From: a virus
IMG/VR virus record: IMGVR_UViG_3300017917_001194
Location: 1-64,000 of that record
Length of the DNA: 64,000 nucleotides
Direction: 5' to 3' (one strand)
The notes under the pieces were generated by a model, which worked only from the letters and a program-made list of their open reading frames with translations, made no database searches and had not been told where the DNA came from. The stretch's first letter is position 1. Each line of letters opens with the position of its first letter. This document shows, piece by piece, positions 35,800 through 44,115 of this stretch. Position numbers and translations under genes: made by a program.

Positions 35800-36237
35800 T
35801 TAAAAACTTTTACCTTCGAGATATCTTTGCTTTCTAAAATGTCTTCCATTGCCTCTATTCTTGCCTTTATATGTTTCTGTTTGGCTATGACAATTTGGAC
35901 AAATCATTGCTAAGTTATCTTCAGTTTGATTTTGGCTATTACCATCAACGTGTTCCACCTCAAGTGTCAGTGGCTTACCGTTCCATTCTATTGTGCCGCA
36001 TATAGCACAACAGTGATTCTGTTTTTCTAACAGATATCTTTTAATATGAACGCTTACACCGTTTGGTCCTGCGCCTACTCTTAATCCTTCTTTCCATTCC
36101 TTAACGTATCTTTTATATTGAGCAGTTTGTTGGCATTTTATCGAACAGTAAATATTTTTCTTACCAGGATGATAATTTGCTTCTGTACCACAATCAATAC
36201 ACAAATATGTTTTAGGGTTAATTCTCTTTTTTGCCAT
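35800..36237 (-). mobile_element. HNH homing endonuclease
   Basis: LEVEHVDGNSQN...NLAMICPNCHSQT. Confidence 0.88.
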
Positions 36238-37293: not shown

Positions 37294-37800
37294 ATGAGAA
37301 TAAAAGAGATTTTAACTGAAGCACATCACAGCATCATACTAACCATGCCAATTGGACCATGGAAAGTGCAAATCGATTCTCATGCGTATGCTACATTACC
37401 TGCTCGTAATATTCCGTTAGAAAACTTTACCAATATGATAAGTTATATGTGTTATCTACCGGATGTTCTTCCGACAATTCCTGTTGGGCGCGGTGCATAT
37501 TTTCAAGACACAAATACTGCTATTTCAATATATGTAACACGTGTAGCTGACAATGTCGTTAGAGTAGAAACAGTGTTGGACCGCACAATGAAGCCAAAGC
37601 AACCTTTATTCCGCAGACCAGTGCCTGCACCGGACATGAAAAATCTTAAGCCTGTTGACTACAGCGCAATAAAGGCTGATGTACAAGCCCGCGGTAGAGA
37701 TGCAGTTAGTCAAGACTTGGAAAAAACTCTACAACCTATCACACCCGTTAACCGAGCTGAGCGAAGAAAATTCGCCAAAGTAATGCGTCGTTTAAAATAA
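37294..37800 (+). CDS. Late-expressed hypothetical protein (MRIKEILTE N-terminus)
   Basis: TAAATA-N5-ATG; antisense to tRNA array. Confidence 0.7.
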   Translation: MRIKEILTEAHHSIILTMPIGPWKVQIDSHAYATLPARNIPLENFTNMISYMCYLPDVLPTIPVGRGAYFQDTNTAISIYVTRVADNVVRVETVLDRTMKPKQPLFRRPVPAPDMKNLKPVDYSAIKADVQARGRDAVSQDLEKTLQPITPVNRAERRKFAKVMRRLK

Positions 37801-37836
37801 TCTACCATATAAAAATACTCTTGTGTAAAAATGTTT

Positions 37837-38016
37837 TTATATGGTGGGACTGCTCGGATTCGAACCGAGACTCTTACCGGTTAAAAGCCGGATGTTTTGG
37901 CCAGTTAAACTACAATCCCTCATTTTCTCTTTACGTCGTAGAGCTTTGTTGCTCTTGCGGTGCGAGCCCGCCTTCCGTTTATTTGCTAGTACAGCAAATG
38001 GATTTCTTGGTTTCAT
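37837..38016 (-). CDS. Basic micro-ORF reading through tRNA-Lys (candidate ArfA-like ribosome rescue factor)
   Basis: AAAGGAGA RBS; MKPRNPFAVLANKRKAGSHRKSNKALRRKEKM then in-frame through the entire tRNA-Lys to TAA 37837-37839. Confidence 0.6.
   Translation of the reverse strand: MKPRNPFAVLANKRKAGSHRKSNKALRRKEKMRDCSLTGQNIRLLTGKSLGSNPSSPTI
37842..37919 (-). tRNA. tRNA-Lys(TTT)
   Basis: Cloverleaf GGGATTG/CAGTCCC, CCA. Confidence 0.92.
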
Positions 38017-38038
38017 TTTATTCTCCTTTGTTAAAAAT

Positions 38039-38113
38039 TGGCCCGCCGTGCAGGAATCGAACCCACATTCTAGAGGTAGAAGCTCTATGTCCTATCCATT
38101 GAACGAACGGCAG
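38039..38113 (-). tRNA. tRNA-Arg(TCT)
   Basis: Cloverleaf, CCA. Confidence 0.93.
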
Positions 38114-38118
38114 TTATT

Positions 38119-38213
38119 TGGTAGCAGATCTAGGATTTGAACCTAGCCGTTCCGGCCCATCTAGCCAGTCTCCAGAGTTTATAAGTCTCCGCCGCACTCC
38201 AGTGCTATCTGCC
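38119..38213 (-). tRNA. Non-canonical tRNA-like RNA, TAT anticodon, long variable arm
   Basis: 7-bp acceptor+ACCA, normal T-arm, mini D-arm, 6-bp variable stem. Confidence 0.65.
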
Positions 38214-38779: not shown

Positions 38780-39169
38780 TTAATTTGTTGGTAAACCTCT
38801 TGCCGCTCTGCCTTTACCCCTGTTTTTTCCTTTATAGGTGTCAGTAGTAGCATGACAATTAGGACATAGCAATCTTAAATTTTCTAACTTATTATTACCG
38901 GCATTGCCATCTATGTGATCTAAATCTAAAGGTATTTTGTTACCTAACCAAGTTTTACCCTTGCACATAGAACATTGATGTCCTTGTATTTTTTTCACAA
39001 ACTCTCTAATAGCCGGGCGTGACCAAACAGAATAGTCACCTTCTTCTAATTTTTTCAGATTATTTTGCTGTCGACCTTCAAAGTAACATTTACGACAACA
39101 ATACATATTAGAGTTACTCAATCGTTTAGGCATAAACGATGTGTTACAAGTTTTACAAACATAGTCCAT
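38780..39169 (-). mobile_element. HNH homing endonuclease
   Basis: LDLDHIDGNAGNNKLENLRLLCPNCHATT. Confidence 0.9.
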
Positions 39170-39617: not shown

Positions 39618-40388
39618 TTAAAGTTTTGAATATTTCTCATTCCACACCCTGATTCTTTCTAATAATTCCTCATAGGTGATTGAATTTTTTTTATGTTTTG
39701 AACTATTTTTAGTATGTATAAGTAGTTCACAATTTGCCGGGTGCCTTATATGTTCCACTGGTAAGTTATTATCAAATCCATATCTACAACTAATCATATG
39801 ATCCCTACTTACTCCTCCGGTATTGTTACCTCTATTTGAGGCTTGATACCACCCGTGTGTTTTTATTAAATTAAAATTAAACTCATCTGGGTAATCTTTA
39901 AGATTAAATCTAAATTGACAATCGGCACGATAATTTTGCCATTCTGTTCTCTTTGCCCTTAACGGAATGTTTTTATAATCTATAGCACACTTTTTACAAC
40001 AGAACGTTTTAATTTTACTAAAAGTTTCAAATTGAGAATTACAGTGCTTACATTGTTTACTAATTAATTGTTTGCTCTTGGCCGGCCCTGTTTTAAATTT
40101 TGAATAATCTTTAATAGCATTATTATAAATGGCCGCACAAGAGTTAGAACAAAATTTATTATGTCTTCTATTATACTCAAGTTTAGTACCACATTGAGCA
40201 CATAGATTGGGATTTTTTATATATTTGTCAATAACATCTTCTTGGTGTCGTTTAGCTAAGATATCATATTTGCCGTTATATCCAGAGGAATATTTTGATA
40301 GATTAAGATGCGTTCTATCAACATGAGTAAATATTCCTTTTGCTGATTTAACTTCTTTACAGTATATACAACTACACAGTGTCGGCAT
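39618..40388 (-). mobile_element. HNH-like homing endonuclease with zinc-finger repeats
   Basis: CxxC..FCSxSC repeats; SRDHMIS...HPANC...N..K. Confidence 0.75.
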
Positions 40389-43570: not shown

Positions 43571-43595
43571 AAAAAGGCCCAATTAAGGGCCTTTT
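43571..43595. terminator. Intrinsic terminator after tmRNA
   Basis: AAAAAGGCCC-AATTAA-GGGCCTTTT. Confidence 0.85.
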
Positions 43596-43910
43596 GGTTG
43601 TTTCTGTTACGAGGTAAGTCCTACCCTAAGCAGTGATTAAACTGCTAAAGTTTGGCGTTGTGCTGTACGAGCAGAGAATTTAACGTTCTTACCTGAAACA
43701 GTTACTTCGCCTTTAGATGCGTTTGCATTTACATTTATTTGCTTGGATTACGTCCATCGCCTCTCGTGTTGTCTGCTACAATACTAATTCGCCCGTCGAG
43801 TCTAAATCAGGCCCCTCATAAACATTCTACTTAAAATGCTTATGGTGGACCTGGGGAGGCACTGCCCCTCCCGTCCGAACAACCTTTCTCTTCACTTCAT
43901 ACAACAATTC
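43596..43910 (-). ncRNA. ssrA: Circularly permuted (two-piece) tmRNA; ends approximate
   Basis: Acceptor piece ...GGAGG-GGCAGTG-CCTCC-CAGGTCC-ACCA (ends 43843) precedes GGGCCTG (43814) giving G3:U70; tag ANASKGEVTVSGKNVKFSARTAQRQTLAV* at 43726-43637. Confidence 0.88.
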
Positions 43911-43911
43911 T

Positions 43912-44115
43912 TTACTCTCTACCCCAATCAATATGTGTCCAAATTCTATCATAAATGTAGTACGAACAAGTCCATACTATGTTAATAATGATAGCAGGTA
44001 ATATTGCTTGCGTAGTACTTTGTCCAGTGATCAACAACATTACATAGGTGCTTAGTATAACCCAGCATCTGTAGATTAAAGTTTTTACTAATGTTCGCTT
44101 TTTCGTATCTTTCAT
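43912..44115 (-). CDS. DUF2061-like small membrane protein
   Basis: KRTLVKTLIYR...YYIYDRIWTHIDWG. Confidence 0.7.
   Translation of the reverse strand: MKDTKKRTLVKTLIYRCWVILSTYVMLLITGQSTTQAILPAIIINIVWTCSYYIYDRIWTHIDWGRE

What the first reader, a model, noticed from the sequence alone, without database searches (positions are those of the whole stretch)
37837..38030. Basic ArfA-like micro-ORF fused to tRNA-Lys: RNase P would create a non-stop mRNA
Seen: strong RBS (AAAGGAGA) and ATG 38016 encode MKPRNPFAVLANKRKAGSHRKSNKALRRKEKM (12 of 32 residues K/R). There is no stop before the first base of tRNA-Lys (37919); the frame runs through the whole tRNA to TAA at 37837-37839 (59 aa, below the ORF-track cutoff). 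Established: RNase P cuts at tRNA +1. E. coli ArfA (KGKGS motif, basic tail) is made from a non-stop mRNA, so tmRNA tags and destroys it unless trans-translation is overloaded. Inference: tRNA maturation replaces RNase III as the non-stop generator, and KRKAGSH may be the analogue of KGKGS. That would give a phage back-up ribosome-rescue factor wired to the phage tmRNA (43596-43910) and to the attenuator-controlled operon.
Basis: partly seen in the sequence, partly recalled or inferred. Interest (0 to 1): 0.85.

Follow-up and report, generated by a model that had tools for sequence, protein, structure and literature searches.

The report
Stop-less basic micro-gene fused to tRNA-Lys
A tiny, very basic and strongly conserved phage gene runs straight into a lysine tRNA gene with no stop codon of its own, so cutting out the tRNA should leave a stop-less message, the design bacteria use for back-up ribosome-rescue factors, although this protein shows no detectable kinship to them.

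Summary
An AAAGGAGA ribosome-binding site and an ATG open a 32-codon frame (38016-37920, minus strand). It has no stop before base +1 of tRNA-Lys(UUU) (37919), and the first in-frame stop is TAA at 37839-37837.

This is not a chance stop loss. The peptide belongs to a large unannotated family (core RNxFVxLAxxRKAGxHRKxNKALR) with 669 clusters in a 1.84-billion-protein library. It has a clear coding signature.

In 106 distinct places from 171 fetched loci, 71 abut tRNA-Lys(UUU) with no stop before +1. All three reading phases occur, and 11 kinds of upstream tRNA. Another 17 run into 13-23-bp inverted repeats.

Free-standing copies with ordinary stops also exist, in Thiomonas-type bacteria, Acidovorax phage ACP17 and some phage contigs.

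No homology to ArfA was detectable with the Pfam model, hhalign or PDB profile searches. The phage tmRNA also occurs in relatives that lack the gene.

Best reading: a programmed non-stop micro-gene whose product level depends on trans-translation. Ribosome rescue is plausible but untested.

I found no paper describing it. The scan has already noted this family on other genomes.

The parts
38039..38113 (-). tRNA-Arg(UCU). It is the upstream neighbour, and its 3' end lies 22 nt before the micro-ORF start codon.
   Evidence: ARAGORN; Rfam tRNA 47.5 bits; sequence.
38022..38029 (-). Shine-Dalgarno AAAGGAGA. The GGAG at 38026-38023 lies 6 nt before the ATG.
   Evidence: Among 71 homologous tRNA-Lys-abutting places, 69 have an SD-like match and 70 start with ATG.
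37920..38016 (-). Micro-ORF proper: 32 codons plus 1 base, with no stop codon. It encodes the conserved basic peptide (core RNxF..LA..RKAGxHRKxNKALR).
   Evidence: Family alignments A2 and A4. Coding signature. Profile hit on the record at E=2e-20, single copy.
37842..37919 (-). tRNA-Lys(UUU). Its +1 base (37919) is the expected RNase P cut, which would end the micro-ORF message.
   Evidence: ARAGORN; Rfam 64 bits. RNase P cutting at tRNA +1 is established knowledge and was not shown here.
37837..37919 (-). Read-through part of the frame: 27 codons across the tRNA, ending at TAA 37839-37837. It is not conserved as protein in relatives.
   Evidence: In relatives the frame enters the tRNA in all three phases (30/23/22), with stops from +7 to +185.
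37804..37845 (-). A/U-rich hairpin that starts in the CCA end of tRNA-Lys and holds the in-frame TAA. It is probably the terminator or processing site that closes this block, because a convergent + strand gene ends at 37800.
   Evidence: strand folding (-14 kcal/mol, z -5.2, 0 of 200 shuffles as good). A similar inverted repeat follows tRNA-Lys in L027 and L030 (by eye).
43593..43959 (-). Phage permuted (two-piece) tmRNA. This is context: it is the machinery that would tag a stop-less product.
   Evidence: Rfam. Tag ANASKGEVTVSGKNVKFSARTAQRQTLAV read.

Best explanation
This is a real gene for a 32-residue, very basic protein (32-44 residues in most relatives). It is built without a stop codon and sits inside a tRNA operon.

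Proposed mechanism:
- The gene is transcribed as part of the tRNA precursor, in the order tRNA-Arg, SD, ORF, tRNA-Lys, hairpin.
- RNase P cuts at +1 of tRNA-Lys, leaving a short message that ends 0-2 bases after the last sense codon.
- Ribosomes run to that end and stall.
- While trans-translation (host or phage tmRNA) has spare capacity, the peptide is tagged and degraded.
- When trans-translation is saturated, the untagged peptide accumulates and acts in trans.

Given its composition, the peptide most likely acts on the ribosome or on RNA. A release-factor-dependent rescue factor that evolved independently of ArfA, BrfA and ArfT is the leading candidate.

Shown: the gene is real, it is under purifying selection, it recurrently lacks a stop, and it is linked to tRNA-Lys(UUU).

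Inferred: the RNase P-made 3' end, the tagging, and any activity of the peptide.
For: (1) Coding signature. Over 95 distinct core DNAs, nucleotide entropy at codon positions 1/2/3 is 0.675/0.486/1.417 bits. The residues R, N, A, G, H, K, K and R are invariant yet use all synonymous codons. Codon differences are 45,793 synonymous against 25,212 non-synonymous.

(2) Family size. 669 clusters at E<=1e-3 and 106 at E<=1e-10 in 1.84 billion representatives. The core sits at the N-terminus and the called lengths vary widely.

(3) Stop-lessness. Of 106 distinct places from 171 loci:
- 71 have no stop before tRNA-Lys(UUU) +1, 3 none before tRNA-Arg(UCU), and 1 none before tRNA-Met.
- No place has a stop within 30 nt upstream of a tRNA-Lys(UUU).

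(4) The frame stays open while everything around it changes.
- The phases are 30/23/22, and the first stop lies +7 to +185 nt past +1.
- In the 12-82-nt linker, 0 of 75 places have a stop in the ORF frame, against 22 and 25 of 75 in the other two frames.
- The 71 places form 24 clusters, with phase changes inside clusters and 11 kinds of upstream tRNA.

(5) The short read-through phase is not preferred. The conserved sequence (..ALRRAQKQ..) ends at the tRNA.

(6) Of the 34 places that do not abut tRNA-Lys, 17 have an exact 13-23-bp inverted repeat starting 5-12 codons after the core. The shuffled maximum is 9-13 bp.

(7) ArfA and BrfA are small basic proteins made from truncated messages and regulated by trans-translation. 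They share almost no sequence with each other, and the review expects further such factors that sequence searches would miss (PMC8012679, passages read).

(8) tmRNAs of related phages carry degron-like tags, ANDEQFALAA and ANDEKFRIAA.
Against: - No RNA data. The one RNA run was held as contigs and showed no ends.
- No similarity to ArfA or to any solved ribosome-binding protein.
- The Lys-His dipeptide shared by ArfA and BrfA is absent. The invariant His is preceded by S, V or A.
- Homologues with ordinary stops and no tRNA exist, so stop-lessness is not needed for the protein as such:
  - 9 Thiomonas/Burkholderiales loci;
  - L135, L138/L245, L149/L150, L189, L266, L273 and L276;
  - the divergent copy in G010;
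  - Acidovorax phage ACP17.
- In the inverted-repeat clade the stop often lies in the loop or the 3' arm, and the loop holds a promoter-like TTGACA..TATAAT. Those members may therefore terminate normally.
- In 23 of 75 abutting places the stop is the tRNA's own T8-A9-G10. Translation of an unprocessed precursor would then add only 2-3 residues.
- The tmRNA also occurs in relatives without the gene.
- The strict link to tRNA-Lys among direct abutters could reflect one ancestral fusion that moves as a unit.
Confidence: 0.5

Rival explanations
1. This is an ordinary small gene that merely overlaps the next tRNA. The peptide has its own trans-acting function. It is translated from the unprocessed precursor and ends at whatever stop lies inside or after the tRNA. 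The missing stop is tolerated genome compaction with no regulatory meaning.
For: - Free-standing homologues with normal stops exist.
- In 23 of 75 abutting places the stop is at +7 of the tRNA, a tail of only 2-3 residues.
- Tight spacing is the rule in these arrays: the median distance from the upstream tRNA to the ATG is 24 nt.
Against: - There is no preference for the short-tail phase (30/23/22). Tails reach 27-60 junk residues, yet no lineage among 24 clusters has gained a stop before tRNA-Lys.
- tRNA 5' processing by RNase P is generally fast (established knowledge, not tested here).
- A second clade puts a long stem at the same position.
Confidence: 0.2
2. The peptide is an arginine/lysine-rich RNA-binding protein. 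It may act on tRNA-Lys itself (protecting or chaperoning it against anticodon nucleases) or on the array transcript (processing or antitermination). It is made in step with the tRNA because both lie on one precursor. Ribosome rescue is not involved.
For: - Among direct abutters the downstream partner is always tRNA-Lys(UUU) (71 of 71), while the upstream partner varies over 11 kinds of tRNA.
- The composition is like arginine-rich RNA-binding motifs (recalled, not tested).
Against: - Homologues in Thiomonas, ACP17 and several phage contigs have no tRNA nearby.
- This reading does not explain why the frame is kept open up to the tRNA.
- No RNA-binding family match was found.
Confidence: 0.15
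3. The ORF is a cis-acting leader. Ribosomes translating the Lys-rich ORF run into the tRNA-Lys sequence and block its folding and processing when Lys-tRNA is plentiful. They stall upstream when it is scarce. This would be a feedback on tRNA-Lys supply.
For: - The link to tRNA-Lys(UUU) is strict, and the missing stop would be required by this model.
- Three Lys positions in the core are invariant or nearly invariant.
Against: - The amino-acid sequence, not only the Lys codons, is under strong purifying selection. Invariant N, A, G and H use all synonymous codons.
- Family members exist without any tRNA.
- Arg is as frequent as Lys.
Confidence: 0.1

Closest known systems
ArfA (YhdL, Pfam PF03889), the RF2-dependent alternative ribosome-rescue factor of E. 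coli
   Same: - Both are small, very basic proteins.
- In both, the message loses its stop codon through RNA processing inside or at the end of the ORF, so trans-translation controls the level of the product.
- The tail beyond the cut is not conserved.
(The ArfA features come from PMC8012679, passages read.)
   Different: - No detectable sequence relation.
- The stop would be removed by RNase P at a tRNA, not by RNase III or termination at a hairpin.
- The product is shorter: 32-44 residues against about 55.
- No KH dipeptide.
- It is carried by phages and a few Betaproteobacteria.
- Activity is untested.
BrfA (YqkK) of Bacillus subtilis and ArfT of Francisella
   Same: These are independent inventions of small basic rescue factors. 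BrfA is also made from a message truncated before its stop, here by an intrinsic terminator. ArfT is only about 40 residues (PMC8012679).
   Different: PDB profile searches at E<=10 gave no match to any rescue factor. The PDB holds a BrfA entry, 6SZS, as named in the review; two searches returned only unrelated chance hits and one search returned none. The context is different (a tRNA array) and the hosts are different.
tRNA punctuation of mitochondrial transcripts
   Same: Coding sequences abut tRNAs, and tRNA excision defines the mRNA ends. Some of those mRNAs lack a complete stop codon (recalled knowledge; no paper was read for this).
   Different: In mitochondria, polyadenylation completes the stop codon. 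Here the bases left before the tRNA (0, 1 or 2, of any kind) give no such completion. The message would therefore stay stop-less and become a substrate for tmRNA.

Membership tests
ArfA (PF03889) | Sequence match to the family model | tested here: not met
   - Pfam scan of the 32-mer and the 59-mer: 0 families at E<=10.
- PF03889 against all six frames of the 86-kb record: no match at E<=10, while the E. coli control was positive.
- None of the 39 diverse members scanned matches ArfA.
- hhalign of the family against E. coli ArfA, and against a 15-sequence ArfA alignment, gives probability 0.05-0.06%. That ArfA alignment is enterobacterial only, at 80% identity or more.
ArfA (PF03889) | Product made from a message that lacks its stop codon because of processing or termination inside the ORF | tested here: inconclusive
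   The gene layout fits: no stop before tRNA +1 in 75 of 106 places, and long stems in 17 more. No RNA 3' end was observed (one search was uninformative).
ArfA / BrfA | Basic C-terminal part with a Lys-His (KH) motif that sits in the mRNA entry channel | tested here: not met
   The basic part is present and has an invariant His. The residue before that His is S, V or A, never K, and the His is followed by R/K-K. The motif definition comes from PMC8012679.
ArfA / BrfA / ArfT | Recruits RF2 (or RF1) and releases peptidyl-tRNA on non-stop ribosomes; synthetic lethality with loss of tmRNA | not testable with these tools
This needs bench work.
Unnamed RNxFV..RKAGxHRKxNKALR micro-protein family (this report) | 24-residue core with invariant R, N, A, G, H, K, K, R | tested here: met
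   The window peptive has the whole core. The profile hit on the record is E=2e-20.
Unnamed RNxFV..RKAGxHRKxNKALR micro-protein family (this report) | Frame runs into tRNA-Lys(UUU) without a stop | tested here: met
   for the window. 71 of 106 distinct related places share the feature.

The most novel reading that the evidence does not exclude
The family is a fourth, independently evolved small ribosome-rescue factor, spread mainly by large phages of Betaproteobacteria. Its production is gated by trans-translation through a route not described before: RNase P cutting at a tRNA makes the stop-less message. It travels as a two-part module with a replacement tRNA-Lys(UUU). Together the two parts would answer host defences that cut tRNA-Lys or flood the cell with stalled ribosomes.
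Probability: 0.2. Interest if true: 0.9.

Novelty: new variant of a known kind. Interest (0 to 1): 0.75.

Why it matters
If the stop-less design works as read, it is a new way to build a trans-translation-gated gene, with tRNA maturation as the step that removes the stop. It would also be the first such gene seen in viruses.

It marks a large family (hundreds of clusters) that annotation pipelines miss or mis-call, because they forbid overlaps between coding sequences and tRNAs and extend the frame into tRNA sequence.

It gives a concrete candidate for the "yet-unidentified small rescue factors" that reviews expect but that sequence searches cannot find. It can be tested with a 200-nt construct in E. 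coli.

It would also tie phage tRNA arrays and phage tmRNAs into one picture: phages securing translation under host attack.

Tried and rejected
**Homology searches that found nothing useful**
- Pfam, PHROGs and NCBIfam on the 32-mer and the 59-mer.
- Pfam on 39 diverse members, which gave only scattered chance hits at E of 0.02 or more.
- PDB profile searches with A1, A2 and A4. These gave chance hits only (designed coiled coils, transcarboxylase) at E of 1.4 or more.
- The ESM Atlas, which returned only unnamed clusters at scores of 0.79 or less and low-confidence models.
- Megablast against the phage collection: no match. The distant mode matched only a stretch spanning the tRNA-like spacer and part of tRNA-Arg; the Klebsiella phage records annotate it as tRNA-Arg | tRNA-His.

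**Co-occurrence tests that do not discriminate**
- The tmRNA is present with the gene and without it.
- ArfA (PF03889) is absent from 5 of 5 bacterial genomes that carry a homologue. It is also found in only 2 of 121 sampled genomes of the same order.
- The 86-kb record holds no RF-1 domain and no SmpB. The record is only about 27% of a genome.

**Sequencing runs**
Only one RNA run held any of the stretch (share 0.07), and it was kept as contigs. Laying it gave a 374-nt piece over the convergent + strand gene and a 37-nt piece over the ORF start that then diverges. No ends, strands or levels can be read from this. Parts without cover mean nothing.

**Tail matching**
Matching the tails of the 150 representatives kept (148 with a recognisable core, 136 with tails of 12 aa or more) to translated tRNAs gave only a lower bound. 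45 of the 136 long tails match, 29 of them to tRNA-Lys(UUU). Tails cut early inside the D-arm are too short to score.

**Leads from earlier scan notes**
- One note said the bacterial homologues lie next to an RNA-repair gene. This was not seen in the three Thiomonas-type loci examined. Their neighbours are LemA and GIDE downstream, and Wzy_C, an ABC-2 transporter or Uma2 elsewhere.
- One note said the bacterial homologues always run into a terminator before a stop. This was not seen in my 9 GC-rich loci, where a stop precedes any hairpin.

**Idea rejected**
I considered that the phage tmRNA tag completes the peptide into a functional fusion. The tags differ between related phages (a 29-residue tag against ANDEQFALAA and ANDEKFRIAA), and tmRNA occurs without the gene.

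**Supplements**
Supplementary files of papers were not opened. The genome survey in PMC11633108 may hold tables that bear on rescue factors in Burkholderiales.

Full report
**What is in the window**

The window is part of an 86-kb IMG/VR phage record estimated at 27% complete, which implies a genome of about 320 kb. GC content is about 40%.

The minus strand between 35.6 and 46.9 kb carries 24 tRNA genes. It also carries a permuted tmRNA (RF04321 at 98 bits).

Between tRNA-Arg(UCU) (38113-38039) and tRNA-Lys(UUU) (37919-37842) lies a 119-nt spacer. It holds AAAGGAGA (38029-38022) and an ATG (38016-38014), followed by 32 sense codons plus one base and no stop before tRNA +1. The frame continues through the tRNA to TAA at 37839-37837, giving 59 aa.

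An A/U-rich hairpin (37845-37804; z -5.2, 0 of 200 shuffles as good) starts in the CCA end of tRNA-Lys. It faces the end of a convergent + strand gene (37294-37800, with relatives in 4 contigs). The unit therefore looks like tRNA-Arg, SD, ORF, tRNA-Lys, hairpin. No promoter-like site lies between tRNA-Arg and the ORF.

**The peptide is a real, conserved protein**

A tblastn search of 84 related loci first found two homologues. Both lie directly upstream of a tRNA-Lys(UUU) and both lack a stop.

A profile scan of IMG/VR then gave 193 confirmed places, of which 80 were kept. Two further scans with more diverse alignments added 87 loci.

A profile search of 1.84 billion representative proteins found 669 clusters at E<=1e-3 and 106 at E<=1e-10. 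The conserved core is almost always at the N-terminus, and the called lengths range from 38 to 176 residues. One 720-residue hit is a repeat protein with KRKAGRPRKSNK units, which I take as a false positive.

Across 95 distinct core DNAs, nucleotide entropy at codon positions 1, 2 and 3 is 0.675, 0.486 and 1.417 bits. The eight invariant residues (R, N, A, G, H, K, K, R) use all their synonymous codons, including CGN and AGR for Arg. Synonymous codon differences outnumber non-synonymous ones, 45,793 to 25,212.

The consensus is MK.K....PRNPFV.LA.FRKAG.HRK.NKALRR..KQ. The record holds a single copy.

**The missing stop is systematic**

I pooled 171 loci: L086-L165, L190-L276, L027, L186, L189 and the window. 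These collapse to 106 distinct DNA places, which break down as follows.

| Class | Places |
|---|---|
| No in-frame stop before +1 of tRNA-Lys(UUU) | 71 |
| No stop before tRNA-Arg(UCU) | 3 |
| No stop before tRNA-Met | 1 |
| Abuts tRNA-Lys but runs off the locus | 1 |
| Stop at most 30 nt before another tRNA (4 Met, 4 Cys, 1 Val, 1 unclassified) | 10 |
| Stop, with no tRNA within 30 nt | 20 |

Within the last class:
- L115 is cut by the locus end inside a tRNA.
- L108 and L228 look, by eye, like decayed or interrupted tRNA-Lys genes.

No place has a stop within 30 nt upstream of a tRNA-Lys(UUU).

Among the 75 abutting places:
- The ORF enters the tRNA in phases 30/23/22.
- The first stop lies +7 to +185 nt past +1.
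- The stop-less peptide would be 32-60 residues, with a mode of 40.
- The linker after the invariant Arg (12-26 nt in most) has a stop in 0 places in the ORF frame, against 22 and 25 places in the other two frames.

The 71 Lys-abutting places form 24 clusters at 85% core DNA identity. Phase changes occur inside clusters, and there are 11 different upstream tRNA neighbours. 69 of the 71 have an SD-like site and 70 start with ATG.

So the frame has been kept open up to the tRNA through many rearrangements and indels, while the part beyond +1 is not kept as protein. There is also no preference for the phase that would give the shortest read-through tail.

**A second ending**

Of the 34 places that do not directly abut tRNA-Lys, 17 have an exact inverted repeat of 13-23 bp. 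The maximum in shuffled controls is 9-13 bp. The 5' arm of the repeat begins 5-12 codons after the core, inside the ORF.

Most of these belong to one clade (MKKK..PRNYLVKLALFRKAG..). The stop lies in the loop, in the 3' arm or beyond. Several loops hold a TTGACA-N17/18-TATAAT promoter-like site, followed by a tRNA.

This parallels the arfA hairpin. It is weaker evidence, however, because these members could also terminate normally.

**Members with ordinary stops**

- Nine GC-rich loci have a 54-60-residue copy with a normal stop and no tRNA within 1.5 kb. They come from Thiomonas (including the isolate T. bhubaneswarensis DSM 18181) and other Burkholderiales-type assemblies. In the three I examined, the copy lies upstream of a LemA gene, followed by GIDE in two of them.
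- Achromobacter anxifer has a copy inside a 12-tRNA array. It abuts tRNA-Lys(UUU) without a stop.
- Acidovorax phage ACP17 is cultured and its host is a Burkholderiales species. It has an unannotated divergent copy with no tRNA nearby and no ATG/GTG/TTG start upstream of the core.
- A few phage contigs have free-standing copies ending in ..LKKEL-like extensions.

The protein therefore works as such in trans. Stop-lessness is a property of the tRNA-linked majority, not of the whole family.

**Relation to known rescue factors**

I found no relation. The negative results are:
- Pfam, PHROGs and NCBIfam: no match at E<=10.
- PF03889 against the whole record: no match.
- hhalign against E. coli ArfA and against an enterobacterial ArfA alignment: probability 0.05-0.06%.
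- BLASTP: it aligns VLANKRKAGSHRKSNK with VEKNKKGKGSYMRKGK, 6 of 16 identities at E=0.35 for the single comparison.
- PDB profile searches: no rescue factor or ribosomal protein matched.

According to the review PMC8012679 (passages read), ArfA and BrfA share only the following:
- small size;
- production from truncated messages under control of trans-translation;
- RF2 recruitment;
- a basic C-terminus with a Lys-His motif.

The same review says ArfT has about 40 residues, and that further such factors are expected to escape sequence searches.

The phage family shares the size, the charge and the gene design. It has an invariant His in its basic half but not the KH dipeptide. It is therefore not a member of the ArfA family. 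It may work like ArfA, and that remains untested.

**The tmRNA link**

The window's tmRNA encodes a 29-residue tag ending in LAV. One relative (G003) has the same tag, apart from three residues, and a second tmRNA. Others encode ANDEQFALAA or ANDEKFRIAA.

All 5 large records with the gene have a permuted tmRNA. In the 5 related records the picture is:
- 3 have a tmRNA at gathering score, and a fourth has a weak match.
- 2 of those 3 (99-100% complete) have no copy of the gene; the third carries only a divergent free-standing copy.

The tmRNA is thus a plausible partner but is not specifically wired to this gene. The canonical tags and the bacterial homologues point to Betaproteobacteria as hosts. 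This is an inference.

**Mechanism and odds**

I put about 0.95 on a real conserved gene that lacks a stop before the tRNA. I put about 0.5 on the full reading: RNase P makes a stop-less message and the product is gated by trans-translation. I put about 0.2 on the peptide being a ribosome-rescue factor.

The rivals are:
- a tolerated overlap with normal termination on unprocessed RNA (0.2);
- an RNA-binding partner of tRNA-Lys or of the array transcript (0.15);
- a cis-acting Lys-codon leader (0.1). This one is disfavoured by the strong amino-acid conservation and by the tRNA-less homologues.

**Novelty**

Six full-text searches and passages of a jumbo-phage comparative paper (PMC7824862) turned up no description of this family or of tRNA processing as a stop-removing step in bacteria or phages. 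Papers outside the held library cannot be excluded.

The scan itself has noted the same family on other genomes several times, with the same general verdict. Those notes are not independent evidence. Two of their claims were checked and not reproduced: the neighbouring RNA-repair gene (3 loci) and bacterial copies always ending in a terminator (9 loci).

**Limits**

- The 106 places are related sequences, so the counts are not independent events.
- IMG/VR scans keep only the best 80 loci each.
- The ArfA alignment used for hhalign was of low diversity.

Noticed in passing
window 38119-38213 (minus strand), between tRNA-His and tRNA-Arg: A 95-nt cloverleaf that neither ARAGORN nor Rfam called. 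It has a 7-bp acceptor stem with G1-U72, a 4-bp D stem with a 4-nt loop, a 5-bp anticodon stem with a 9-nt loop (ACUUAUAAA), a 6-bp variable arm, a normal T arm and ACCA (fold -32.1 kcal/mol, z -2.3). Its identity is unclear. The array lacks called Tyr and Phe tRNAs.
   Followed up: partly
window 43593-43959 (minus strand); L170, L171, L172, L176: The permuted phage tmRNA has an unusually long 29-residue tag ending in LAV. One related phage record (G003) has the same tag, apart from three residues, plus a second tmRNA. Other relatives have canonical ANDEQFALAA and ANDEKFRIAA tags. No SmpB was found in the 86-kb record.
   Followed up: partly
L135 753-1208: A GOLLD RNA (Rfam RF02032, 223 bits) lies in a related phage contig just upstream of the tRNA array. 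A tRNA is called inside it at 816-887.
   Followed up: no
window 37804-37845; L027 about 1195-1290; L030 about 855-965; L160/L162 about 1590-1655: These are recurrent inverted repeats whose loop holds a TTGACA-N17/18-TATAAT promoter-like site and whose 3' arm overlaps the -10 box. They sit at the junctions between tRNA blocks. They look like combined terminator and promoter elements.
   Followed up: partly
L266 951-1051: ARAGORN calls a 101-nt tRNA of unknown type with a four-base anticodon (tacc), right after a family member that has an ordinary stop.
   Followed up: no
L185 1444-1608; L180; L183: In Thiomonas-type genomes the homologue (54-60 aa, no evident Shine-Dalgarno site) lies upstream of a LemA-family gene. 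A GIDE-like gene follows in L180 and L183, and a Uma2 gene is inserted before LemA in L185.
   Followed up: partly
L277 2501-2644 (Acidovorax phage ACP17, record 151751-151894): An unannotated divergent family member lies between gp244 and gp245. It has no ATG/GTG/TTG start upstream of the core and overlaps the start of gp245.
   Followed up: partly
L228 393-531 (and three identical places): The micro-ORF is followed by what looks like only the 5' third of tRNA-Lys, joined directly to ACCA and the downstream hairpin. It appears to be an internally deleted tRNA-Lys.
   Followed up: no
window 35800-36237, 38780-39169, 39618-40388 (minus strand): Cys-rich ORFs lie between tRNA blocks and carry HNH-like motifs by eye. 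They are probably homing endonucleases that shuffle the array. They were not run against Pfam.
   Followed up: no
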